The notes under the pieces are model-generated. The model worked only from the letters and a program-made list of their open reading frames with translations, searched no databases and was not told where the DNA came from. This document shows, piece after piece, positions 6,473 to 63,502 of a stretch of DNA of 64,000 nucleotides (position 1 is the stretch's first letter; each line of letters begins with the position of its first letter). The DNA is from Squalus acanthias. Lineage: Eukaryota. The translations under genes were made by a program, and so were the position numbers. The stretch is from assembly GCA_030390025.1 (NCBI GenBank), contig CM059432.1:14014001-14078000 (forward strand), given 5' to 3'.

Positions 6473-6640
6473 AGAAGTCGCACAACACCAGGTTTATTTG
6501 AAATCACAAGCTTTCGGAGCGCTGCTCCTTCGTCAGGTGAAGTGAAGAGATGCATATAGGCACAGCATATATAGTCAGAGAACACTGCCAGATGATTACA
6601 GTTAATCTTTCCAACTGCCCTTTATCACACCTCGGCAGAG
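6473..6640 (-). mobile_element. Penelope-like element pLTR fragment (family P1)
   Basis: Same sequence as the arms at 37984-38189 and 56938-57309; carries a hammerhead core. Confidence 0.7.
6504..6540 (-). ncRNA. Minimal type I hammerhead ribozyme motif, intact core (P1)
   Basis: Minus strand UCAC-CUGACGA-A-GGAGC(AGC)GCUCC-GAAA-GC-UU-GUGA: all conserved core nucleotides, 5-bp stem II, 4-bp stem I, palindromic AAGCUU stem III. Confidence 0.7.
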
Positions 6641-10516: not shown

Positions 10517-10759
10517 TATGTGCCATGTGCAGGACAATTGATTTCATTGCATGTAGCGCAGAGGAAGTTTTCCCCATTGTGTACACATCGTAGAAAAGTC
10601 TGGACTTCCAGAGCCCAACTACATCACACACGACACTAAGAGACACTCGGCCGACTACCACTACTGCTACAAACAACCGCACAGAGGCAGAGTCATCTGC
10701 ACCTTCACAACCTGGCGTCTCATCAATATAGGAGTATTCACAAAATACAGATTAGGTAA

Positions 10760-10999
10760 TATCTCTTAATGTCTCTCAATGTCTCTTAATCTCTCCTGCT
10801 TTCTATCCTACCTGACCTTCCCTTTTGTTCTTTCATTACCTCCCCCTTTTCCCAGCATTATACTTGCTTTAAATCTATTTCAATTCCTGCTTTTTTCCAG
10901 TTCTGACGAAAGGTCTTCGACCTGAAACGTTAACTCTGTTTCTCTCTCCACGGATGCTACCTGGCCTGCTGAGTTTTTCCCAGCGTTTTCTGTTGTTAT
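10760..10999 (+). mobile_element. Hammerhead-bearing retroposed insert (family P2, probable Penelope-like)
   Basis: Perfect 14-bp TSD TACAGATTAGGTAA at 10746-10759 and 11000-11013; body shared with the copies at 38646 and 41969. Confidence 0.8.
10899..10935 (+). ncRNA. Minimal type I hammerhead ribozyme motif, intact core (P2)
   Basis: AGUU-CUGACGA-A-AGGUC(UUC)GACCU-GAAA-CG-UU-AACU. Confidence 0.7.
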
Positions 11000-11039
11000 T
11001 ACAGATTAGGTAAAAGTGGTTTAGAGCACGACAGACATC

Positions 11040-11720
11040 AGTGAGCTCTTATCGACGAGTGTAGTGAAACTCTAGTGCAAGATATTAAAGCTAGCATGCT
11101 CACCAAAATGGACGAGAGGTTGGCCAAGATGGAGACACCCGTCTTGGAGACCTCCATGTCGGAGCTGAATATCTTCATCTCGGCGAGGAGAACCTTCACC
11201 TCTTCAATACGTACTGTGATTGAGCAATGGCTGGCTGAAGTGGAGATATTGTGAACCAGGGAGTGAGCCACATAAGGATATTGCTCCACAATGCTGCCGC
11301 TTGAGGTGAGATCCACCCAAGAAGGTGTGGAACTAGGGTGATAGAATCTTGAAGAAGGAATAACCATAAGGGAGGGTTTTGTTCATCCTATAGATGCGCA
11401 TTGTCCTTGGAGGAATGACAAGATGCCCACCATCAGTGCCTAAGGAGGGATTCACAGGTTTTGGAACATATACAAGCAGCTTGGCCTTCACGTCATACAG
11501 CCTTGACCACACTGCTTCTGGTGCCCCACCAGAAGGCAAGCGGCACTCCACGTTCCTAAACCTGATAATCCACCCTCGGGGAATGTTGCAGATTCCACCT
11601 TCATTCCCTATGACCAATGTTGAAGATCCACTGTTGGGTGAGCCACTTTGCACCAGAGTACCGCAACCAGAGGAGCAGCACCGAGGCCACCATCACCTTC
11701 TCTGTGGGGAAGTGTGAAGA
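11040..11720 (+). pseudogene. Possible highly decayed L1/Tx1-type ORF1 relic
   Basis: Plus frame reads coiled-coil-like ETLVQDIKASMLTKMDERLAKME...IEQWLAEVE, followed by RRNN-like (AGAAGGAATAAC) text resembling the ORF1 RRM start; many disablements. Confidence 0.3.
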
Positions 11721-15052: not shown

Positions 15053-15441
15053 GGGCTGGATTTTCAATGACCCGTGGAGGCGTGTGGGGGGTTAAAGTTG
15101 CGGGGTCGGGGGTCCCGACTCCATCCCGCCTCCACGCAATTTTGACAAAATCAGTCGCGGGGTTCCCGACTCCGTCCCGCCTCCAAGAGGCGGGAGAGGC
15201 CATTAAAGCCCTTAACAAGCCCTAAATTGGCTCTGTAATGCCATTTTGAAACGTTTTAGCTAGTTTAACCCTTTTCCGACGTGAAGTACGCCTGGTGTGA
15301 AACACGCCAGTGAAACCTGGCGGGAGCACAAGTGGATAGCTGACTATCAGCTGGAGGTCCACTATTACAACGGAGATGCGATGAAGGTAGTAGTATTATT
15401 AAGTCTGAAAGTTGATGCTGATGGAAAAAAAAAATTCTCAT

Positions 15442-15473
<32 letters not shown>

Positions 15474-15663
15474 TGTCTCTCTCTCGGTCTCTCTCTCTGT
15501 GTCTCTCTCTCTGTGTCTCTCTCTCTCTGTCTCTCTGTGTCTCTCTCTCTGTCTCTCTCTCTGTGTCTCTCTCTCTCTGTCTCTCTCTCTCTGTGTCTCT
15601 CTCTCTGTCTCTCTCTCTGTGTGTCTCTCTCTCTGTCTCTCTCTCTGTGTCTCTCTCTCTGTG

Positions 15664-15697
<34 letters not shown>

Positions 15698-15721
15698 TGT
15701 GTGTCTGTCTCTCTCTGTGTG

Positions 15722-15752
<31 letters not shown>

Positions 15753-15819
15753 GTCTCTCTCTCTGTGTCTCTCTCTGTGTCTCTCTCTCTGTGTCTCTCT
15801 CTCTGTGTGTGTCTCTCTC

Positions 15820-15867
<48 letters not shown>

Positions 15868-16124
15868 TGTCCTGCTGCTGCTGCTCATTTTGCATCCAGG
15901 TCCACTCACAGCAAAGGCCAGGCAATCTCTGCAATGATGACATCATCAGAGGCGACTTTCAGACTCAAACCACTAATTGGTTCATGGGTTCCCACATGCT
16001 GGAACTCAATTGCCCAATTAAGTTAAAATTGCATCATTCATCCACATTAAACTAGAGTCGGGGGGGGGCAACATGAAATGTGGATCACACGACCCCAACC
16101 CGACCCCAAGATAAAATCCAGCCC
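15053..16124. mobile_element. Harbinger-type MITE family M1 (inverted relative to 1669-2429) with expanded microsatellite
   Basis: Same TIR GGGCTGGATTTT/AAAATCCAGCCC; body is the reverse complement of 1669-2429; flanks AGA/AAA. Confidence 0.85.
15442..15871. repeat. Compound (CT)n/(GT)n microsatellite
   Basis: About 430 bp of CT repeats interspersed with GT units. Confidence 0.98.
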
Positions 16125-33600: not shown

Positions 33601-33884
33601 TAATAAGGGGACAGTGTAATTAGAATCGCCACTAAACCCATGCAGCTGTCACTGCAGCATGTGACTGATTCACTTCAGAATGATTTTCACAGCTCAGTGT
33701 TTCATTTCAATTTAAGGAGGGGAAAAGAAAACTGCAAAAGCCGGAATTCTGAAATGAAAACAGTAAACACTGGAAACATACACCAGCATCTGCAGTGAAA
33801 AGTTGATGTTTTGAACAGAATGGAAGGAGTGTTTTTGCAAGTGTTTCTCTGACACTTGTCATCAAAGAGCCATCTCCGGAGTGT

Positions 33885-34353: not shown

Positions 34354-35440
34354 GGCCGGCATTTTCGGGGGTCCGTGCGGACGCGATTGGAGGCGGGTCG
34401 GGTGGGAGATTTGAAATAAGTTGCAGCGGATCGGGAACCCACCGTCATCCCGCCCCCACTCGCCTTTCCCTCGGGCGTGTTTGCCGGCGCGGCAGCGACC
34501 CGACCGGCAGAGGCGGGCGACCAAATTCAAATCATTAACAGGTAGTTGTCAGACCCTTAAGTGCCTTTTTCAGCCTACCTTTCGAATTTCCCTGGCTGCC
34601 CACGGGATTCACGCAGCTCAGGAAACACACTTGTCAGCCTGAGGCGGGAGTTGAGTGGCCATTGCTCCAGCTGATTAGTTGACAGCATCAAATGTACTAT
34701 AAAAGCTCCCACCTCACAGCTGATCACTTTCCTCAGGCAGAAGCTGTTGCTGGCTGCATTCCCAGCACACATTTAGCTTTCTACTGGCTGCAAGTGTTTC
34801 CAGCAAAGTCGCCATCCAGTCTCACCTCATTGGTACAACCTATCACACCATTGGCAGCTTGCTCCTCTGACCTCTACTTGACCTGCCATCTATACCATCA
34901 GCATGGGTGCCGTTTATACTGTCTTACCTTGGTCCTCAGAATCGAACCACGATGAGCCCCAACACCAGCAGCACCAGGCACACCCGCAGCACCAACAACA
35001 ACACCACCAACCTCTCCTCAACACCCTGATGCTGCACAGGACAGAGGGCATCAGCGCAGGGCTGCACTGTGCCGGAGGCGGTACTCCCCAGCACAGGGTA
35101 TACGGGCAGAGGATGAGCTTCCTCAACATGACTGAGCAGCAGTGCCAAAGGAGGCTCAGGCTGTCACGCCAGGTTGTTGCAGACATTTGCACATTGCTGG
35201 AGCAAGACTTGCAGCCCAGAGGAATGGGTAGACATGTCTTACCGGTGACTGTCAAAGTCACCAGCACCCTCAACTTCTTTGCCTCAGGCTCCTTCCAGGG
35301 ATCTGCAGCAAACATTTGCGGCATCTCACAGTTGGCCGCCCACAGATGCATCACACAGGTAACCGATGCCCTGTTTGACAAGTCAGCCAATTATATCAAC
35401 TTTGCCACTGATGAAGCCAGTGTTACTGTGCGGGCATCCA
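34354..35440 (+). mobile_element. Harbinger H1 nuclease-side end, truncated
   Basis: TIR GGCCGGCATTTTC; reverse complement of about 45310-46364. Confidence 0.85.
34903..35440 (+). pseudogene. HARBI1-like Harbinger transposase N-terminal fragment
   Basis: [20 protein letters not shown]...[20 protein letters not shown]....[19 protein letters not shown]......YINF; stops before the DDE core. Confidence 0.85.
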
Positions 35441-36442
35441 CCAGTTTGGATGAAAGGTCATTGACCTGAAACGTTGGCTGCGATTTTGCAAATGGATGAG
35501 GCTTGGGAGCGGGTCAGCTGGTTTCCGGGTTCCAGTCCCGCCCCCAACTGCATCCAGCCCACAGACGTGATTTTACGTCGATTGGCCTTGTTAAGCCCGC
35601 CCTGCGGGCTTGCCGGCCAATTAAGAGGAAGCTGGTGTCAGATGACGTCATTTGATGACGTGTCATCTGCCGGTTTTCTTAAAGGGACCACGCACAATTT
35701 TTCTTTGACAGCTCATTTCTCAGTGTTTGACAGCATTGAGGGGCTGCAAACACTGACAATCACTGTTCAAAGGTGAGCTCTTGCACCCAGGCTCTCCAGT
35801 GACTCCCTCCATAGGCTAGAACAGATGGCAGCTGCAGGTGAGGTTACAGAAGCGATGTGTCACTGGTGAGAGAGGTTCTCCCAATGAGGTGGGACTAGAC
35901 AGCCAATTCAAATCTGTTACCTACAGAAAAGTGTAAAAACATTAAGAATGATTTCCCCAACATTTCCTTACCTCTGAAACTCACCAGTGCACCATTGGAA
36001 CCTTCACACCACTTCTGCAGCTGTCATCAATGCAGAAACACTACAGCAGACTCACAACACGCCACACTTACCTGGCGTGGTGTCCGGACGTCGGGGAACC
36101 CGAGGCAGAAGTGGCAAAATTGAAAAAGAGCCTGTTAACAAGTATCAAGTACCTGTTAACAGCCAGGCTATAATCCTCTTCCCGCCGCTAGGTGTCGGGT
36201 CCATGCGCAAATCGGGTCCATGCGCAAATCGGGGACCCGACACTCGGGAAGATTGATTGGAAGCGGGTTGACAGCGGGTTTCCTGTCCGCTGTCAATCTT
36301 TGCGATTTTGCCGGCGGTCCCGCCTCCAATCCTGCACTCTGAGGACCGGCAAAATTCCGGCTGTTAACTCTGTTTCTCTCTCTCCACAGATGCTGCCTGA
36401 CCCGCTGAGTATTTCCAGCATTTTCTGTTTATTTTTTCAGAT
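35441..36442 (+). mobile_element. P2 hammerhead-type insert split by a Harbinger MITE
   Basis: ...GATGAAAGGTCATTGACCTGAAACGTT [MITE] GTTAACTCTGTTTCTCTCTCTCCACAGATGCTGCC... Confidence 0.75.
35476..36362. mobile_element. Harbinger H1-related MITE (about 0.89 kb)
   Basis: TIR GGCTGCGATTTTGC...GCAAAATTCCGGCT, TSD GTT at 35473-35475 and 36363-36365; paralogue at 61239-62115. Confidence 0.85.
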
Positions 36443-36715
36443 TTTGCTTTTGGTTTATCGAGCAATCTACCCTTCTAATCCCTAGTCTTGCTTAAGGCTT
36501 TTAAACGTGTGCTTGTGTTCTCTACTTTCACGCATACAGTTCAAGTTAAATAACCTGCTTACATCTTCGTTATCAATTCTTCTCTGCAATTTAAAAATCT
36601 GGATCATGTCTTCCCTCAATCTTTACTCCAACCTCTTTGTACATGTCCTGAATCCTAGAATCATCCTGGCTATTCTTTTCCAAATCCTCCGCAATGCGCC
36701 AATGTCCTTTTTGAA

Positions 36716-37032
36716 GGCAACACGGTGGCATAGTGGTTAGCACTGTTGCCTCACAGCGCCAGGGACCCGGGTTCGAATCCGGCCTCAGTTGACTGTCTGT
36801 GTGGAGTTTGCACATTCTCCCCGTGTCTGCGTGGGTTTCCTCCGGGTGCTCCGGTTTCCTCCCACAGTCCAAAGATGTGCGGGTTAGGTTGATTTGGCTA
36901 TGATAAATTGACCCTTAGTGTTGGGGGGATTAAATACGTGGGGTTACGGGGATAGGGTGGGATATGTGTCGGTGCAGGCTCGATGGGCCGAAATGGCCTC
37001 TATCTGCATTGTGGGGATTCTGTGATTCTGTG
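36716..37032 (+). mobile_element. HE1-type V-SINE
   Basis: tRNA head TGGCATAGTGG...GGTTCGAATCC, V domain GTGGAGTTTGCACATTCTCCCCGTGTCTGCGTGGGTTTCCTCCGGGTGCTCCGGTTTCCTCCCAC, CR1-like tail GATGGGCCGAAATGGCCT...GATTCTGTGATTCTGTG. Confidence 0.9.
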
Positions 37033-37983
37033 CTCCAAAACGCAACCAAGGGCACCGTTTTCCCTCCCCACCCCTTTCCCTGGATAGGTGCCGTGCGCCC
37101 TGAATTTGGTGGTTGAGGCCAGCTGAATGACCTGCTCGCGCCCTGGTGCAGACTCCCCTCCAACAGGGCCGTCCTATGCACGTAGAAACGGGGGTGAGAA
37201 TACTGGCCACCGGCTTTTGGGGCCTTCTGCTGCTGTCAGGTGACTACAGCCCAGACGTCTTCCTGGCCCAAAGATCCATGGTGAGGCTGGAAGAAGAAAA
37301 GGAGTCACGTTTTTATTTTCTGCCCTGCTGCCTGCTCCTTTGGACCCCACCCCTAAGATTGGAAGTAATGAAAAGCTTGAAGCTTTGATTTGTGCACTAC
37401 AGTGTATCTGACAGCAGATGGCGACGTCTCACTTTATAAATCAAACTGAATAGCTCAGTGCAAAAAATATTACTATATTTGTACAATGTGCTTGTTTACA
37501 CCTTGCTTCCTCATGCAACAACTCCTTAATAGGTTGGAGTGGTAAGCGGCAAAATGCTGATCTGTTCTTCAAATTACTTTACTCTTAAGTATAATCATGA
37601 CCCTTGGTTAATATTACCAGTCTGCCGAATAATCTGCACAAACCTTCAGTTCTTCAATTCTATTTACATAGTGTGACCTTATAGAATCACAGAATCTTAC
37701 AGCACAGAAGGAGGCCCTTTGGTCCATTGTGCGTCTTTGAAAGAGCTGTCTAATTTAGTCCCATGTCCCAGCATTTTCCCCATTACTCTGCAAATTAGTC
37801 CTCTTCAAGCACATATCTAATTGCCTTTTGAAAGTTCCTATGGAATCTGCTTCCACCATCTTTTCAGGTAGTGCGTTCCCGATCCTAACAACCCTCTGTG
37901 TGAAAAAATTCTCCTCCTCATTTACCCTCCAGTTCTTTTGCCAATTATTTTATATAAATGACCCCCGGTTACTAACCCACTTG

Positions 37984-38189
37984 AGAGGTCGCACAACACC
38001 AGGTTATAGTCCAACAGTTTTATTTTAAATCACAAGCTTTCGGAGTTACAACTCCTTCGTCGGGTGAAGAAGGAGTTGTAACTCCGAAAGCTTGTGATTT
38101 AAAATAAAACTGTTGGACTATAACCTGGTGTTGTGCGACCTCTCAATTTTGTCCACCCCAGTCCAACACCGGCATCTCCGCATCATGAC
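37984..38189 (+). mobile_element. Penelope-like (P1) insertion: inverted pLTR pair plus tail
   Basis: Arms about 37981-38058 and 38069-38146; 14-bp TSD TACTAACCCACTTG at 37970-37983 and 38190-38203. Confidence 0.8.
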
Positions 38190-38645
38190 TACTAACCCAC
38201 TTGCCAGAGGAAACTGTTTCTCCCTACTTTTTCTGTCAAAACCCCTCATAATTTTAAATACCTCTATTCGATCTACCCTTAACCTTCCCTGCTCTAAGGA
38301 GAACAATCCCAGCTTCTTCAATCTCTCCATATAACTAAAGTCCCTCATCTCTGGTATCATCCTGCTAAACCTTCTCTGTACCCTCTCCAAGGCCTTGACA
38401 TCCTTCCTAAAGTGTGGTGCCCAGAATTGTACACAATACTCCAGCTGATGCCTAACCAGTGATTTGTAAATGTTTAGCATGACCTCCTTGTTTTTGTATT
38501 CAATGCCCCTGTTTACAAAGCCAAGTATCCCGTACACTTTCTTAACCACCTTATCAACTTGTCCCGCCACCTTCAAAGATTTGTGAATACGCACTCCCAA
38601 GTCCCTCTGCTCTTTCACCCCCCTCAAAATAGTAGAATTTAGATT

Positions 38646-38778
38646 CTTCTGACGAAGGGTCATCGACCTGAAACGTTCACTCTGTTTCTCTCTCCACAGA
38701 TGCTGCCTGACCTGCTGAGTATTTCCAGCATTTTCTGTTTTTACTTCAGACTTCCAGCATCCGCAGTATTTTGCTTTT
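38646..38778 (+). mobile_element. P2 hammerhead-type insert
   Basis: CTGACGAAGGGTCATCGACCTGAAACGTT core; 14-bp TSD GTA(G/T)AATTTAGATT at 38632-38645 and 38779-38792. Confidence 0.8.
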
Positions 38779-39472
38779 GTATAATTTAGATTATACTGCC
38801 CCTCCATGTTGTTCCTCCCAAAGTGCATCAATTCACATTTATCGGCATTAAATTGCATCTGCCGTGTGCCTGCCCATTTCACTAGTCTGTCCATGTCCTC
38901 CTGAAGTCTGCTACTGGCCTGCTCACTATTTACTGCGTTCCCTGGTTTTATATTATCCACAAACTTTGTAATTGCACTCTCTATACCCAAGTCCAGGTCA
39001 TTTATGTGGAACAAGAAAAGCAATGCTCCATCTAATTCCTGCTCTTTCTACACTATTCTTTATTCCGTTGCTGTTTGTTAGTTTTCTATGCACTTTATCT
39101 CTCCTCGCTGCTGCTATGACCTGGTTTCCCCTCCCTCTGCCAAATTAGTTTAAACCATCCCCTTCAGTGCTAGATTTTTCTGAAAGGACTAAAGTTCAGT
39201 ATAGAACAGAGCAATCGATGTAACGTTGTGTACTTGTTCAATGAATAAAATGTTACTTAGATTGATTGAATCACAAACCACAAGCAGATAAATTCAACAG
39301 TACAAGCATGTGCTGAAGAGCAGACCAAACTGTACGACATCTACCGCGAGTGATACAAATATAAAAAATTCCATCTATTTCCCTGAATTTCCAAATAATC
39401 TGCCAACCTGAAGCAAAAATAAACAGTAAAAGACAAAATGGTAACAGACATATTAAGGAGTCCGATACGATA

Positions 39473-39524
39473 GCAAAATACTGCAGATGCTGGAAATCCG
39501 AAATAACAACAGAAAACGCTGGAG
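39473..39524 (-). mobile_element. P2 3'-end fragment
   Basis: Reverse complement of the CCAGC.TTTTCTG...TTTCCAGCATC.GCAGTATTTTGCT tail. Confidence 0.55.
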
Positions 39525-40010
39525 TCCTTTGGGCCCAGTGCTCCAGCTTTATTGAGTTACCAGCGCATCAGTTTTGTTACTTAATGTATTCTAATTATTT
39601 GTTTTATTTTATTTTGACTACCCCACACTGTCTTTCAGAAATTAGGATGGTGGTCCCTGGGAGTGGTGTAGGAGATCTGGGGTCTCCTTTGATGTCGTGG
39701 TGGCTTTAAGATGACATTTCTAGTGATCGAAGCTTCCAAATCAGCCCTCTGTGGCAGACTCTGTAATCTGATACCGGAACCAGGCAGACCCGCAGTACCC
39801 TGTTAATGATGGACTAGTCAGCCTGGTTCACCAATGGAACCGGGAGGGATGAACCTCTCAATGGGGCTTTGATTATTCTAACTTGGCTAAGGATAGCCTG
39901 CGAGTCAATACTCCAGTGGGTAGTGGTTCTAACTGAACAAGTAGTGGGAAGCCACTTTGGTAAACTGTCTATTTTAGCAGGTTAAACTTCAGCAGGACCC
40001 TGTGGGGGGT

Positions 40011-40485
40011 CATAAGAACATAAGAAATAGGAGCAGGAGTCGGCCATTCGGCCCCTCGAGCCTGCTCCGCCATTCAATAAGATCATGGCTGATCTTCTAC
40101 CTCATCTCCACTTTCCTGCACTATCCCCATATCCCTTGATTCCCTTAATAGCCAAAAATCTATCGATCTCTGTCTTGAATATACTCAATACCTCTGGGGT
40201 AGAGAATTCCAAAGATTCACCACCCTCTGAGTGAAGAAATTTCTCCTCATCTCAGTCCTAAATGGCTGACCCCTTATTCTGAGTCTGCGGCCCCTGGTTC
40301 TAGACTCCCCAGCCAGGGAAACATCCTGCCTGCATCTACCCTGTCAAGCCCTGTAAGAATTTTGTATGTTTCAATGAGATCACCTCTCACTCTTCTAAAC
40401 TCCAGAGAATATAGGCCTAGTCTACTCAATCTGTCCTCATAGGACAAACCCCCCATCCCAGGAATCAGTCTGGCGAACCTTCGTC
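40011..40485 (-). mobile_element. CR1 3' fragment with (TAAGAACA)n tail
   Basis: [31 protein letters not shown]. Confidence 0.9.
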
Positions 40486-41967
40486 CTCAACCTTAGTTCT
40501 TCCAACCTGCACCTAAAACTCTCTAGGTAAGTGGAATGTGTCATCAAATTACTCGGCGGAAAAGTTAGTAAACTGGACAACTGCAAATATAAGATGCATA
40601 GAGTACAAAGAGACATATTCCTATAAGGTGAAAAAAGGATGCTTCAAGATTCCATGCATAAGTAGAGCAATTGAAAAGGAATACATATGATTAAACTAGG
40701 TCTAACAATAGTAAAGAAAATCATGAGGAATATGGAGAGCCTGTAATTCTTCAGGATAGGTTCCCATCAGTTACACCACGATTGTGCCCAGCAGAGTTTG
40801 CAGGGTCGTAGGAACATAGGAACATAGGAACAGGAATAAGCCATTAAGCCCCTCAAGCCTGTTCCGCCATTCAATGAGATCATGGCTGATCTGCGACCTA
40901 ACTCCATATACCCGCCTTTGCCCAGATCCCTTAATACCTTTGGTTAACAAAAACTCTTATCAATCTCAGATTTAAAATTAACAATTGATCTAGCATCAAT
41001 TGCCGTTTGCGGAAGAGAGTCCCAAACTTCTACCACCCTTTGTGTGTGGAAGTGTTTCCTAATTTCACTCCTGAAAGGTCTGGCTCTAATTTTTAGACTG
41101 TGCCCCCTAGTCCGAGAATCCCCAACCAGCGGAAATAGTTTCTCTCTATCTACCCTATCAGTTCACCTTAATATCTTGAAAACTTCGATCAAATCACCCC
41201 TTAATCTTCTAAATTCTAGGGAATACAACCCTAATTTGTGTAATCTCTCCTCGTAATTTAACCCTTGGAGTTCAGGTATCAGTCTGGTAAACCTACGCTG
41301 CACTCCCTCCAAGGCCAATATATCCTTCCTAAGGTGTGGTGCCCAGAATTGCTCACAGTACTGCAGGTGTGGTCTAACCAGGGCATTGTATAGCTGTAGC
41401 ATAACTTCTACTCCCTTGTATTCTATATAAAGGCCAACATTCCATTAGCCTTTTTGATTATTTTCTGTACCTGTTCCTGACATTTAAATGATCTATGTAC
41501 TTGGACCCAAGTCTCTTTGGACCTCCACTGTTTTTAGCTTTTCACCATTTAGAAAGTAACCTGTTCAATCCTTTTTAGGTTCAAAGAGGATGACCTCTCA
41601 TTTGCTACATTGAAATCCATTTGCCACAGTTTTGCCCATTCACTTAATCTATCAATATCTCTTTGTAATTTTATGCTTTCATCTACACTGCCTACAATGC
41701 CGCCTATCTTTGTGTTATCGGCAAATTTGGATATGTGGCTTTCTATCCCATCATCTAAGTTGTTAACGAATACAGTGAATAGTTGAGGTCCCAACACAGA
41801 TCCCTACGGGACACCACTAGTCACCTCCTGCCAATTAGAGTACCTGCCCATTATCCCTACTCTCAGTCTCCTTCCACTCAGCCAATTTCCTAACCAACTC
41901 AATAATTTGCCTTCAATTCCATGGGCTTCAACCTTAGCTAACAGTCTCTTATGAGGGACTTTATCAA

Positions 41968-42004
41968 AGTTCTGACGAAGGGTCATCGACCTGAAACGTT
42001 AACT
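41968..42004 (+). ncRNA. Minimal type I hammerhead ribozyme motif, intact core (P2)
   Basis: AGUU-CUGACGA-A-GGGUC(AUC)GACCU-GAAA-CG-UU-AACU. Confidence 0.7.
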
Positions 42005-42103
42005 CTGTTTCTCTCTCTCCACAGATGCTGCCTGACCTGCTGAGTATTTCCAGCATTTTCTGTTTTTATTTCAGATTTCCAGCAGCCGCAGTGTTTTGCT
42101 TTT
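41969..42103 (+). mobile_element. P2 hammerhead-type insert
   Basis: Perfect 12-bp TSD GACTTTATCAAA at 41957-41968 and 42104-42115, within the CR1 AFDKVPH codons. Confidence 0.85.
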
Positions 42104-42937
42104 GACTTTATCAAACGTCTTCTAGAAGTCCATATAAATAACATCCATAGACATTCCCCTGTCCACTACTTTAGTCACCTCTTCAAATACCTCAATCAGG
42201 TTTGTCACGCATGACCTACCTTTCACAAATCCATGCTGGCTCTCTCTGATCAGCTGAAAATTTTCAAGGTGTTCAGTCACCCTATCCTTAATTATAGACT
42301 CTAGTAATTTCCCGACAATAGATGTTAGGCTAACTGGTCTATAATTCCCTGGTTTCCCTCTCTCATAATAGCGGAGTGACATGCGCAATTTTCCAATCCA
42401 AAGGAACGGTTCATGAATCAAGAGAACTTTGGAAGATTATAGTTAGGGCATCTGCAACATGCTCACCTACTTCCTTTAAAACCCTGGGATGGAAACCATC
42501 TGGCCCTGGGGATTTGTCACTCTTTAGTGCCATTATTTTCTTCATTACTGTTATTTTGATTATGTTAACTTTGTTGAGTCCTCGTCGTTGATTCAATATT
42601 AGTTTCCTTGGGTTTTCCGGCATGCTATCCTCTTCTCCTACTGTAAATACTGATGCAAAGGCCGGAATTTTCCCGACCTGGGCGGGTCCGGTGCGGGCGG
42701 CTGGCATGGCGGGTCGTGACCCCGTTGCTGGCTCCATCCCGCTCCACAGAACGACTTTACGTTAATGGGGCCTATTAAGCCCGTCCTGCACATTACCCAG
42801 CCCAATTAAAAGGTGCAGGTCTGGTGACATCATCGATGACGCATTTTCAGCCGGGCTATTTAAAGGAGCCATGGCCACATTGCATTTGCAGTTTCATCTA
42901 GGATAGTGCTATTCCACTGCTGCACACACCACCAGAG

Positions 42938-56937: not shown

Positions 56938-57309
56938 TCATGATGCGGAGATGCCGGTGTTGGACTGGGGTGGACAAAAGTGAGAGGTCACACAACACCA
57001 GGTTATAGTCCAACAGCTTTATTTGAAATCACAAGCTTTTGGAGCACTGCTCCTTCATCAGGTGAAGTGAAGAAATACATATGGGCACGGCATATATAGT
57101 CAGAGAACACTGCCAGACGACTACAGTTAATCTTTCTAACTGCAATTCGAAAGATTAACTGTAGTTGTCTGGCAGTGTTCTCTGACTATATATGCCGTGC
57201 CCATATGTATTTCTTCACTACACCTGACAAAGGAGCAGCACTCCGAAAGCTTGTGATTTCAAATAAAGCTGTTGGACTATAACCTGGTGTTGTGCGACCT
57301 CTTACTTTT
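56938..57309 (-). mobile_element. Penelope-like (P1) insertion: inverted pLTR pair plus tail
   Basis: Arms 56976-57136 and 57149-57309 with a 12-nt spacer; tail is the reverse complement of 38147-38189. Confidence 0.8.
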
Positions 57310-61003: not shown

Positions 61004-63502
61004 ATAGAATCATAGAATGGTTACAGCACAGAAAGAGGCCATTTGGCCCGTCGAACCTGTACCAGCTCTCTGGAAGAGCACTTAAGCTAGTCCCACTCCC
61101 CCTGCCCTTTCCCTGTAGCCCTGCAATTTTTTTTCCTTCAGGTACTTATCCAATTCCCTTTTGAAAACCATGATTGAATCTGCCTCCACCGCCCTTTCAG
61201 GCAGTGAATTCCAGATCCTAACCACTTATAGAGTCATAGGCCGCGATTTTCTGCTTCGAGGCGGCTTGGGAGCGGGTCAGCTGCCTTCCTGGTTTTAGTC
61301 CCGCCCCCAACTACATCCGGCCCACAGACGTAATTTTACATCAATTGGTCTTGTTAAGCCCGCCCTGCGGGCTTGCTGGCCAATTAAGAGGAAACCAGTG
61401 TCAGATTATGTCATTTGATGACGCATCATCTGCCAGTTTTCTTAAAGGGACCATGGACAGTTTTTTTTGACAGTTGATTTTTCAGTGTTTGACAGCATTG
61501 AGGTGATGCAAACACTGACAATTACTGTGCAAAGGTGAACTCTTGCACCCAGGCTCCCCAGTGACTCCCTCCTTAGGCTAGAACAAATGGCAGCTGCAGT
61601 TGAGGTTACAGAAGCGATCTGTCACTGGTGAGAGAGGTTCTCCCAATGCGGTGGGACTAGACATACAATTCAAAACTTGTTACCTACAGAAAAGTCTACA
61701 TGCATTAAAAATGAATTTCCCAACATTTTCTTACCTCTGAAACTCACCAGTGCACCATTGGATCCTTCACAACACTTCTGCAGCTGTCATCAATGCAGAA
61801 ACATTACAGCAGACTCACAACACGCCACACTTACCTGGCGTGGTGTCCTGTCGTCGGGAAGCCCGCAGTAGAAGTGTCAAAATTGGAAAAAGCCTGTTAA
61901 CTGCCTGTTAATAACCTGTTAATAAGCAGTTCAGTGGCTTTAATCCTCTTCCCGCCGCTAGGTATCGGGTCCATGTGCAAATCGGGGACCCAACTCTTGG
62001 GAAGATTGATTGGAGGCGGGTTGACAGTGGGTGTCCTGCCCGCTGTCAATCTTTGTGATTTTGCCGGATGTCCCGCCTCCAAACCCGCCCCCTGAGCGCC
62101 GGCAAAATTCTGGCCTTAGAGTCATAGAGTCATTATGGCACAGAAGGAGGCCACTTGGCCCATCGAGTCCGTGCCGGCTCTCTGTAGAGCAATCCAGTCA
62201 GTCCCACTCCCCCGTTCTATCCCCGTAGCCCTGCAAGTTTATTTCCCTCAAGTTCCTCTCCAATTTCCTTTTGAAATCATTGATCGTCCCCTCTTCCACC
62301 ACCCTCGTCGGCAGCGAGTTCCAGGTCATTACCACTCGCTGCGTAAAAACGTTCTTCCTCACATCCCCCCTGTATCTCTTGCCCAAAACCTTAACTCTGT
62401 CTCCCCTAGTCCTTGCTGCGTAAAAAAAGTTTTTTCTCCTGTCACCTTTAGTTCTTCTGCCAATCACCTTAAATCTGTGTCCTCTGGTTCTCGACCCTTC
62501 TGCCAATGGGAACAGTTTCTCTTTATCTACTCTGTCTAGACCCCTCATGATATTGAACACCTCTATCAAATCTCCTCTCAACTGCCTCTGCTCTAAGGAG
62601 AACAACTCCAGCTTCTCCAGTCTATCCATGTAATTGAAGTCCCTCATCCCTGGAACCATTCTTGTAAATCTTTTCTGCACCCTCTCTAAGGCCTTCACAT
62701 CCTTCCTAAAGTGCACAGAATTGGACACAATACTCCAGTTGAGGCTGATCCAGTGTTTTATAAAGGTTCATCATACCTTCCTTGCTTTTGTACTCCGCCT
62801 CTATTTCTGAAGCCCAGGATCCCGTATCCTTTTTTAACCGCTTTCTAAACCTGCCCTGCCACCTTCAACAATTTGTGCACATATACCCCCAGGTCTCTCT
62901 GTTCATGCACCCCCTTTAGAATTGTAACCTTTGGTTTATATTGCCTCTCCTCGTTCTTCCTACCAAAATGTATCACTTTGCACTTTTCTGCGTTAAATTT
63001 CATCTGCAACGTGTCCGCCTATTCCACCAGCCTGTCTATGTCCTCTTGAAGTCTATCACGCTCCTCCTCACTGTTCACTATACTTCCAAGATTTGTGTCA
63101 TCTGCAAATTTTGAAATTGTGCCCTGTACACCCAAGTCCAAGTCATTAATATATGTCAAGAAAAGCAGTGGTCCTATTACCGACCCCTGGGGAACACCAC
63201 TGTATACCTTCCTCCAGTCCGAAAAACAACCGCTCACCACTACTCTCTGTTTCCTGTCACTTAGCCAATTTCGTATCCATGCTGCCACTGTCCCTTTTAT
63301 TCCATGGGCTTCAACTTTGCTGGCAAGCCTATTATGTGGCACTTTATCAAACGCCTTTTGGAAGTCCATGTACCACGTCACCGCATTGTCCTCATCAACC
63401 CTCTCTGTTACCTCATCAAAAAAACGCGATCAAGTTAGTTAAACACGATTTGCCTTTAACAAATCTGTGCTGGCTTTCCTTAATTAATCCACACTTATCC
63501 AG
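61004..63502 (-). mobile_element. CR1 3' part with nested CR1 fragment (about 61227-62414) and MITE
   Basis: MDFQKAFDKVPH, GVPQGSVIGPLLF, KFADDTNLG; tail at 61004 separated from the body by the nested elements. Confidence 0.92.
61239..62115. mobile_element. Harbinger H1-related MITE (paralogue of 35476-36362)
   Basis: TIR GGCCGCGATTTT...AAAATTCTGGCC; flanks ATA/TTA inside a (TAGAGTCA)n CR1 tail. Confidence 0.85.

What the first reader, a model, noticed from the sequence alone, without database searches (positions are those of the whole stretch)
10899..10935. Family P2: short TSD-flanked retroinserts built around a minimal hammerhead ribozyme
Seen: AGTT-CTGACGA-A-[5-bp stem, 3-nt loop]-GAAA-CG-TT-AACT recurs at 10899, 38649 and 41968, and mutated at about 35445. 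Three of these inserts are non-coding, 133-240 bp long and have 12-14 bp TSDs. Stem II pairing is kept while its loop varies (UUC/AUC/AUU). Established: CUGANGA and GAAA..UH form the hammerhead core, and minimal hammerheads with a palindromic stem III that cleave as dimers occur in Penelope-like element pLTRs. Inference: a high-copy self-cleaving RNA motif spread through this genome by a PLE or as a non-autonomous retrozyme-like element. AACGUU would form stem III in trans, with cleavage after GUU.
Basis: partly seen in the sequence, partly recalled or inferred. Interest (0 to 1): 0.7.

Follow-up and report, generated by a model that had tools for sequence, protein, structure and literature searches.

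The report
Shark Penelope-type hammerhead mini-inserts
The repeated motif is a real copy of the small "minimal hammerhead" self-cutting RNA that Penelope-like jumping genes carry at their ends, left here as short tail-end insertions in shark DNA, an ordinary new example of a class described in 2014 and probably inert at these spots.

Summary
The motif is real: 4 copies, none in 100 shuffles. Flanking duplications are 14, 12 and 10 bp exact. Only 10899 and 41968 keep core and both stems; 38649 has lost stem I, and 35445 has a broken core and is split by a DNA element. The architecture matches the published minimal type I hammerhead of Penelope-like elements (PLEs), GUU site included (PMC4209133). 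The inserts behave like PLE 3' ends: variable 5' ends, two 3' ends 27-34 nt apart (the PLE tail), very high depth in shark-like runs. The link to an RT + GIY-YIG gene was not shown: none among 234 window ORFs, and no genome is held. Two-sided covariation appears only between this family and a second one in the window. Cleavage is untested; the monomer is predicted to misfold, and the inserts keep the uncut site. Tandem retrozyme features are lacking. One point is worth a follow-up: many copies begin right at the 5' edge of stem I, so a 135-nt SINE-like unit is possible. The scan noted this class before, in this and other shark genomes. New member of a known kind; low interest.

The parts
10899..10935 (+). 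Copy A: complete minimal type I hammerhead (stem I 10899-10902/10932-10935, core 10903-10909, extra A 10910, stem II 10911-10915/10919-10923, GAAA 10924-10927, CG, UU; predicted cut after 10931)
10760..10999 (+). Copy A insert, 240 bp: about 140 nt of element sequence upstream of the hammerhead, then the short 3' end
   Evidence: (depth 5e5-1.7e6 over the upstream part against 28 in the flank)
10746..10759 (+). Left 14-bp target duplication of copy A
11000..11013 (+). Right 14-bp target duplication of copy A; its first 8 nt match the element's own 3' sequence at 7 of 8
38646..38779 (+). Copy B insert in a CR1-like LINE remnant; core and stem II intact, stem I broken; long 3' end (tail)
41969..42103 (+). 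Copy C insert, 135 bp, in a CR1-like RT remnant; complete hammerhead 41968-42004; long 3' end; 12-bp duplication 41957-41968/42104-42115
35441..35475 (+). Copy D: 5' half of a split copy; core mutated; ends at the GTT triplet
36363..36450 (+). Copy E: 3' half of the same split copy (begins GTT), with an internal deletion in the tail
39465..39523 (-). Copy F: about 60-bp 5'-truncated copy without hammerhead, long 3' end, 7-bp flanking repeat
33728..33776 (-). Copy G: diverged 3' fragment (78% identity)

Best explanation
The inserts are 5'-truncated 3' ends (pLTR plus optional tail) of an endonuclease-bearing Penelope-like retroelement in a shark genome. Inferred mechanism, by analogy with the anole element PAc: the element's RT-GIY-YIG protein nicks AT-rich DNA and starts cDNA at one of two internal sites about 95 and 125 nt downstream of stem II; it copies the uncut RNA towards its 5' end and often stops near the hammerhead's 5' edge; repair leaves a 7-14 bp duplication. 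The hammerhead has no stem III of its own and can only work as a dimer through the ACGU palindrome, probably with protein help, in transcripts of tandem full-length elements. These scattered single copies are most likely passive. Shown: sequence, duplications, end structure, high depth. Inferred: the PLE protein, the priming mechanism, cleavage.
For: Architecture equals the published consensus (core, extra nucleotide after position 9, GAAA, palindrome, UH, short stem I); 11 of the 44 alignment rows I read have the same C-G-U-U. 3' ends cluster at two points 27-34 nt apart while 5' ends range from -140 to about +85; a 30-40 bp optional tail, 5' truncation and 8-10 bp duplications are described for PLEs. 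In PAc, RT starts internally 111-118 nt into an ORF that begins at stem II, and uncut RNA is the main substrate. Empty-site homologues cross the junction for copy B (3) and copy C (4). A second hammerhead family in the window shows the inverted pair, one-sided tail and 13-14 bp duplications typical of PLEs; across the two families 7 of 9 pairs change on both sides. The 2 named proteins of 10 looked up that carry the repeat's peptide are from sharks.
Against: No RT + GIY-YIG link: 0 of 234 window ORFs of 75 aa or more hit a GIY-YIG family; the open frame through the hammerhead and tail found 14 proteins, none with an RT or GIY-YIG domain. No inverted or partial-tandem P2 copy in the window. No two-sided covariation inside P2. 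Stem II closes with A-U or G-U, not the usual G-C (9 of 44 published rows also have U there). No empty-site homologue for copy A. Three of 4 hammerhead-bearing copies start within 4 nt of the stem I edge, which random truncation alone does not explain. Rfam gave no hammerhead hit.
Confidence: 0.8

Rival explanations
1. The 135-nt unit (stem I edge to tail) is a separate non-autonomous, SINE-like family with its own transcript start at the hammerhead, mobilised in trans by the PLE protein and amplifying from short copies.
For: Copies B, C and D begin within 4 nt of the stem I edge. Loose ends with unrelated upstream letters (agreement 0.33-0.58) are listed at 10898-10904 in all 4 runs, e.g. 149 contigs in X5 and 185 + 253 in X6; depth over the hammerhead is 6-20 times the highest upstream bin. 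pLTR sequence alone can drive insertion in trans.
Against: Copy A differs from most contigs in its upstream part, so upstream depth is undercounted; 143 (X5) and 227 (X6) contigs at 10892 continue into shared upstream sequence; 688 loose-end rows were hidden. Copies with longer (A) and shorter (F) 5' ends exist. No diagnostic changes of a short subfamily were tested.
Confidence: 0.14
2. The inserts are monomers of a non-LTR retrozyme: tandem units cut by the hammerhead into circles that are reverse-transcribed and reinserted.
For: Retrozymes were reported in the 1 chondrichthyan sampled, with dispersed monomers common in some families. A few contigs show 'goes back' joints.
Against: 0 of 4 window copies are tandem; each such joint rests on 1 contig; copy ends do not sit at the cut site; the hammerhead is minimal, while the retrozymes characterised in PMC7229834 carry canonical ones.
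Confidence: 0.05
3. The motif only looks like a hammerhead; it is a chance fold at the head of an unrelated repeat.
For: No Rfam hit; the monomer's predicted best fold is not the hammerhead; no covariation inside the family.
Against: All core letters, the extra nucleotide and the palindrome sit at the published spacing, and a second family with different stems keeps the same 37-nt layout.
Confidence: 0.01

Closest known systems
Minimal hammerheads (min-HHR) in pLTRs of metazoan PLEs (Cervera and De la Pena 2014, PMC4209133; read: parts 1-2 of 4 of the text, part 2 of 3 of supplementary file 2)
   Same: Type I layout, CUGANGA plus one extra nucleotide, GAAA, palindromic CG with no loop 3, GUU site, 4-bp stem I, U-rich upstream sequence, mostly dispersed single copies.
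   Different: No shark row in the part read ('shark', 'Callorhinchus', 'milii' 0 hits in file 2; file 1 not searched). Stem II closes with A-U/G-U. PLE ORF link not shown here.
Poseidon element PAc of Anolis carolinensis (Frangieh et al. 2024, PMC11167929; read: parts 1-2 of 4)
   Same: Hammerhead about 100-125 nt upstream of the 3' end, two 3' ends one tail apart, AT-rich targets (two of three duplications contain ATT), uncut motif in inserted copies.
   Different: PAc has a known ORF that starts at stem II; the equivalent open frame here matched no PLE protein. No sequence comparison was possible.
Non-LTR retrozymes (Cervera and De la Pena 2020, PMC7229834, passages read; Li et al. bioRxiv 10.64898/2026.07.22.740005, parts 1-3 of 5 read)
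   Same: Short non-coding units with a type I hammerhead, duplications longer than 4 bp, kin to PLE pLTRs.
   Different: Retrozymes are defined by tandem units; these copies are single, variably truncated and carry a PLE-like tail.

Membership tests
Metazoan PLE min-HHR | Core CUGANGA, GAAA and NUH | tested here: met
   Copies A, B, C; copy D has a broken core
Metazoan PLE min-HHR | [quoted passage not shown] | tested here: met
   A at 10910 and equivalents in 4 of 4 copies (feature)
Metazoan PLE min-HHR | Palindromic 15.2/16.2, no loop 3 | tested here: met
   CG in 4 of 4 copies
Metazoan PLE min-HHR | Short stem I and a stem II of 4 bp or more | tested here: met
   4-bp and 5-bp stems in A and C; stem I broken in B, cut off in D
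Metazoan PLE min-HHR | G10.1-C11.1 pair (typical at the >80% consensus level, not part of the descriptor) | tested here: not met
   A-U or G-U here; 9 of 44 published rows read also have U11.1, so it does not exclude membership
Metazoan PLE min-HHR | Compensatory changes in the stems | tested here: inconclusive
   None inside P2; 7 of 9 pairs between P1 and P2, which is one independent contrast
Metazoan PLE min-HHR | Weak self-cleavage as dimer, none as monomer | not testable with these tools
   Folding predictions only; all runs laid were contigs, which cannot show RNA ends
EN+ Penelope-like element (Penelope/Poseidon) | Single ORF with PLE-type RT and GIY-YIG endonuclease linked to the pLTR | tested here: inconclusive
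   Not in the window; no genome held; peptide search negative
EN+ Penelope-like element (Penelope/Poseidon) | 5' truncation with fixed 3' ends | tested here: met
   Copies A-G
EN+ Penelope-like element (Penelope/Poseidon) | Optional 30-40 bp tail at the 3' end | tested here: met
   A ends 27-34 nt before B, C and F (feature)
EN+ Penelope-like element (Penelope/Poseidon) | Short, variable target duplications | tested here: met
   14, 12, 10 and 7 bp; 8-10 bp reported in PMC3846280
EN+ Penelope-like element (Penelope/Poseidon) | Partial tandems and inverted 5'-truncated copies | tested here: inconclusive
   Not seen for P2 in the window; 2 opposite-strand joints of 1 contig each in X6; clear for the neighbouring P1 family
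Non-LTR retrozyme | Tandem units each with a hammerhead | tested here: not met
   0 of 4 window copies; only single-contig 'goes back' joints. The whole genome could not be scanned.
Non-LTR retrozyme | Expressed as small circular RNA | not testable with these tools
   No raw-read RNA run was listed

The most novel reading that the evidence does not exclude
Sharks carry a hammerhead-headed, SINE-like mini-retroelement of about 135 nt, perhaps in the order of 10^5 copies, whose 5' end is set at the first pairs of stem I (a transcript start or a fixed RT stop) and whose 3' end is the PLE internal priming site. It would be the smallest unit a PLE protein can mobilise and a natural map of the cis-elements for PLE priming; its core may be held off by pairing with its own cleavage site until the PLE protein binds.
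Probability: 0.2. Interest if true: 0.5.

Novelty: new member of a known kind. Interest (0 to 1): 0.2.

Why it matters
As it most likely stands it adds sharks to the list of vertebrates whose genomes are strewn with PLE minimal hammerheads; I found no paper describing this shark family, but the class, the GUU variant and the dimer model are in print. It matters practically as a caution: single intact-looking hammerheads in shark DNA, and the short peptide that shark gene models pick up from this repeat, are repeat debris. If the 5' hot spot at stem I marks a self-standing mini-element, it would give a compact handle on an open question, namely what the hammerhead does in PLE transposition.

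Tried and rejected
No genome is held, so no genome-wide scan or upstream walk. Rfam at E <= 5: 8 hits, no hammerhead. Pattern scans: 0 hits in viral contigs, 0 in prokaryote genomes, 0 then 2 in metagenomes; the 2 hits are 22-bp chance matches in GC-rich microbial DNA. The idea that the 43-aa open frame through copy B is the N-terminus of the PLE protein got no support: 0 hits among longer proteins; 14 hits by phmmer, 13 of them short or chimeric predictions and 1 unrelated bacterial-type protein, none with RT or GIY-YIG. Pfam on all 234 window ORFs of 75 aa or more: 7 RVT_1 and 2 Myb/SANT hits, no GIY-YIG; a recalled-motif scan of 495 ORFs of 55 aa or more gave 1 irrelevant hit. No RNA holder on record was listed; X16 and X17 are only guessed to be RNA, so expression is not claimed, and the depth rise across the cut site (1.2-1.7 fold in all 4 runs) does not separate RNA from DNA. 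Supplement searches for the motif: 0 in PMC4209133 file 2 (file 1 not searchable), 0 in PMC11167929, 0 in 12 of 24 files of PMC8455134. Lunse et al. 2017 is not held and is known to me only through the review PMC6765202. bioRxiv supplements are closed; the retrozyme tables of Li et al. might list this family. The P1 copy at 38030-38067 (38 nt) and its truncated partner were left out of alignment A1.

Full report
Setting. The window has no gene-like long ORF; it is made of LINE RT remnants and Myb/SANT (Harbinger-type, label recalled) remnants. No genome is held. The 2 named proteins, of 10 looked up, that carry the repeat's peptide come from Heterodontus francisci and Scyliorhinus torazame, so the DNA is very likely from a shark. 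Penelope elements are listed for the whale shark (PMC8455134, one passage read).

Observation. The specific motif occurs 4 times against 0 in 100 shuffles. Complete 37-nt hammerheads exist at 10899 (A) and 41968 (C). Copy B (core at 38649) pairs only 1 of 4 stem I positions; copy D (35443) has a changed core. Exact duplications are 14 bp (A), 12 bp (C) and 10 bp (B; 13-14 with 1 mismatch), against a background of 0.2-0.4% per random site. Homologues of the host LINE cross the empty site for B (3 hits) and C (4 hits), none for A. Identity over the shared part is 93/105 (A-B), 95/107 (A-C) and 102/106 (B-C). Three further pieces lack the hammerhead. D and E appear to be one copy, split by an 887-bp element with GTT on both sides and a second copy at 61239-62114.

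Copy number and ends. 21 runs hold part of 35300-42300; I laid 4 of them on 10640-11120 (contigs only). In X5 the left flank has depth 28, the upstream part of insert A 0.55-1.7 million and the hammerhead 10-12 million; the ratio, about 4e5, is an order-of-magnitude hint only, since the tool warns that summed depth is no copy number. The high depth starts and stops at the duplications, so the whole insert is repeat. Loose ends with unrelated upstream letters are listed at 10898-10904 in all 4 runs; others at 10892-10893 continue into shared upstream sequence; 688 rows were hidden, so the share of each is unknown. 3' ends fall at two points: A stops 27-34 nt before B, C and F. Variants inside the motif at 5% or more in some run are C7 to U, a G-U wobble at the base of stem II, two loop changes, G16.2 to A, and a wobble in stem I; three of these lie at CpG sites and none is a two-sided change (10 rows hidden).

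Comparison with print. PMC4209133 (parts 1-2 of 4 read; part of the supplement) defines the minimal hammerhead of PLEs with the same core, extra nucleotide, palindrome and short stem I, reports thousands of mostly single copies in coelacanth and Xenopus, no monomer activity and low dimer activity. 11 of the 44 rows read have C-G-U-U and 9 have U at 11.1, so neither the GUU site nor the non-G-C closing pair is new. PMC11167929 shows for the anole element that RT starts internally 111-118 nt into an ORF beginning at stem II, that the tail lies between the two start sites, that the hammerhead cuts only with protein present, and that uncut RNA is the main substrate. Tail, 5' truncation, inverted copies, solo pLTRs and 8-10 bp duplications are described in PMC8557442, PMC3846280 and PMC8969392 (passages read). 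A second family in the window (P1) has different stems in the same 37-nt layout and shows the inverted pair, one-sided tail and duplications. On 4 P2 and 3 P1 copies, 91.5% of cells pair and 7 of 9 pairs change on both sides, 0 of 500 shuffles reaching the paired share but 37 of 500 reaching the pair count; two families are one contrast, so this shows a shared design, not selection inside P2.

How it works. Shown: structure of the inserts. Inferred: a PLE protein primed cDNA internally downstream of the hammerhead and copied uncut RNA; if cut RNA had been the template, copies would begin after GUU, whereas A, B, C and D include the core. For catalysis two motifs must pair through ACGU. That duplex is weak (-1.7 kcal/mol against -3.5 for AACGUU and -6.2 for the longer palindrome). 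The monomer's best fold pairs the core U4-G8 with C15.2-A1.1 (probability 0.85-0.98 in A and 0.3-0.5 in C with 10-nt flanks), and the hammerhead-like dimer scores -9.7 against -22.9 kcal/mol for the best dimer. These energies ignore core contacts, so they suggest low unaided activity and prove nothing. Single copies kilobases apart, two of four damaged, are most likely passive.

What is missing. I could not tie P2 to an RT + GIY-YIG ORF, so PLE membership rests on the ribozyme type and on end structure. Retrozymes are defined by tandem units (PMC7229834 passages; bioRxiv 10.64898/2026.07.22.740005 parts 1-3), which these copies lack.

Verdict. Real, correctly recognised, and of a known kind. 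The only open point of interest is the pile-up of 5' ends at stem I, which leaves about a 1 in 5 chance of a self-standing mini-element. Interest 0.2.

Noticed in passing
window 37984-38189 and 56939-57301; single copy at 6504-6540 (-): Second hammerhead family (P1; stem I UCAC/GUGA, G-C closing pair, GAAA-GC-UU). Two head-to-head inverted pairs, each with an approximately 40-bp tail on one side only and 14-bp or 13-bp (1 mismatch) duplications, the textbook PLE insertion shape. The Rfam microRNA hits at 57000-57285 are due to this inverted repeat.
   Followed up: partly
window 35476-36362; second copy 61239-62114 (86%): 887-bp element with imperfect terminal inverted repeats and a 3-bp GTT duplication, inserted exactly at the hammerhead's cleavage triplet of copy D/E; probably a Harbinger-type non-autonomous DNA element (label recalled), position probably chance.
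   Followed up: partly
window 10885-10900 and 10930-10955: Two 3'-splice-site-like signals frame the hammerhead: a pyrimidine run plus CAG just before stem I (in Drosophila virilis the PLE intron ends at stem I), and a branch-point-like TTAAC over the cut site followed by a pyrimidine run, CAG and ATG. Use of either is untested.
   Followed up: no
window 38652-38780; proteins P0008, P0010: The peptide read from the repeat (starting MLPDLL) appears inside shark gene models, such as a PIP5K-like model of Heterodontus francisci; likely annotation artefacts or exonisation.
   Followed up: partly
run X16, record 5 (3961 nt): A long contig from a guessed-RNA run begins with 91 letters matching 10884-10974 and runs on upstream; it could hold a fuller element or a host transcript.
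   Followed up: no
window 15265-16055: About 0.7 kb of GA-rich simple repeat giving long false open frames.
   Followed up: no
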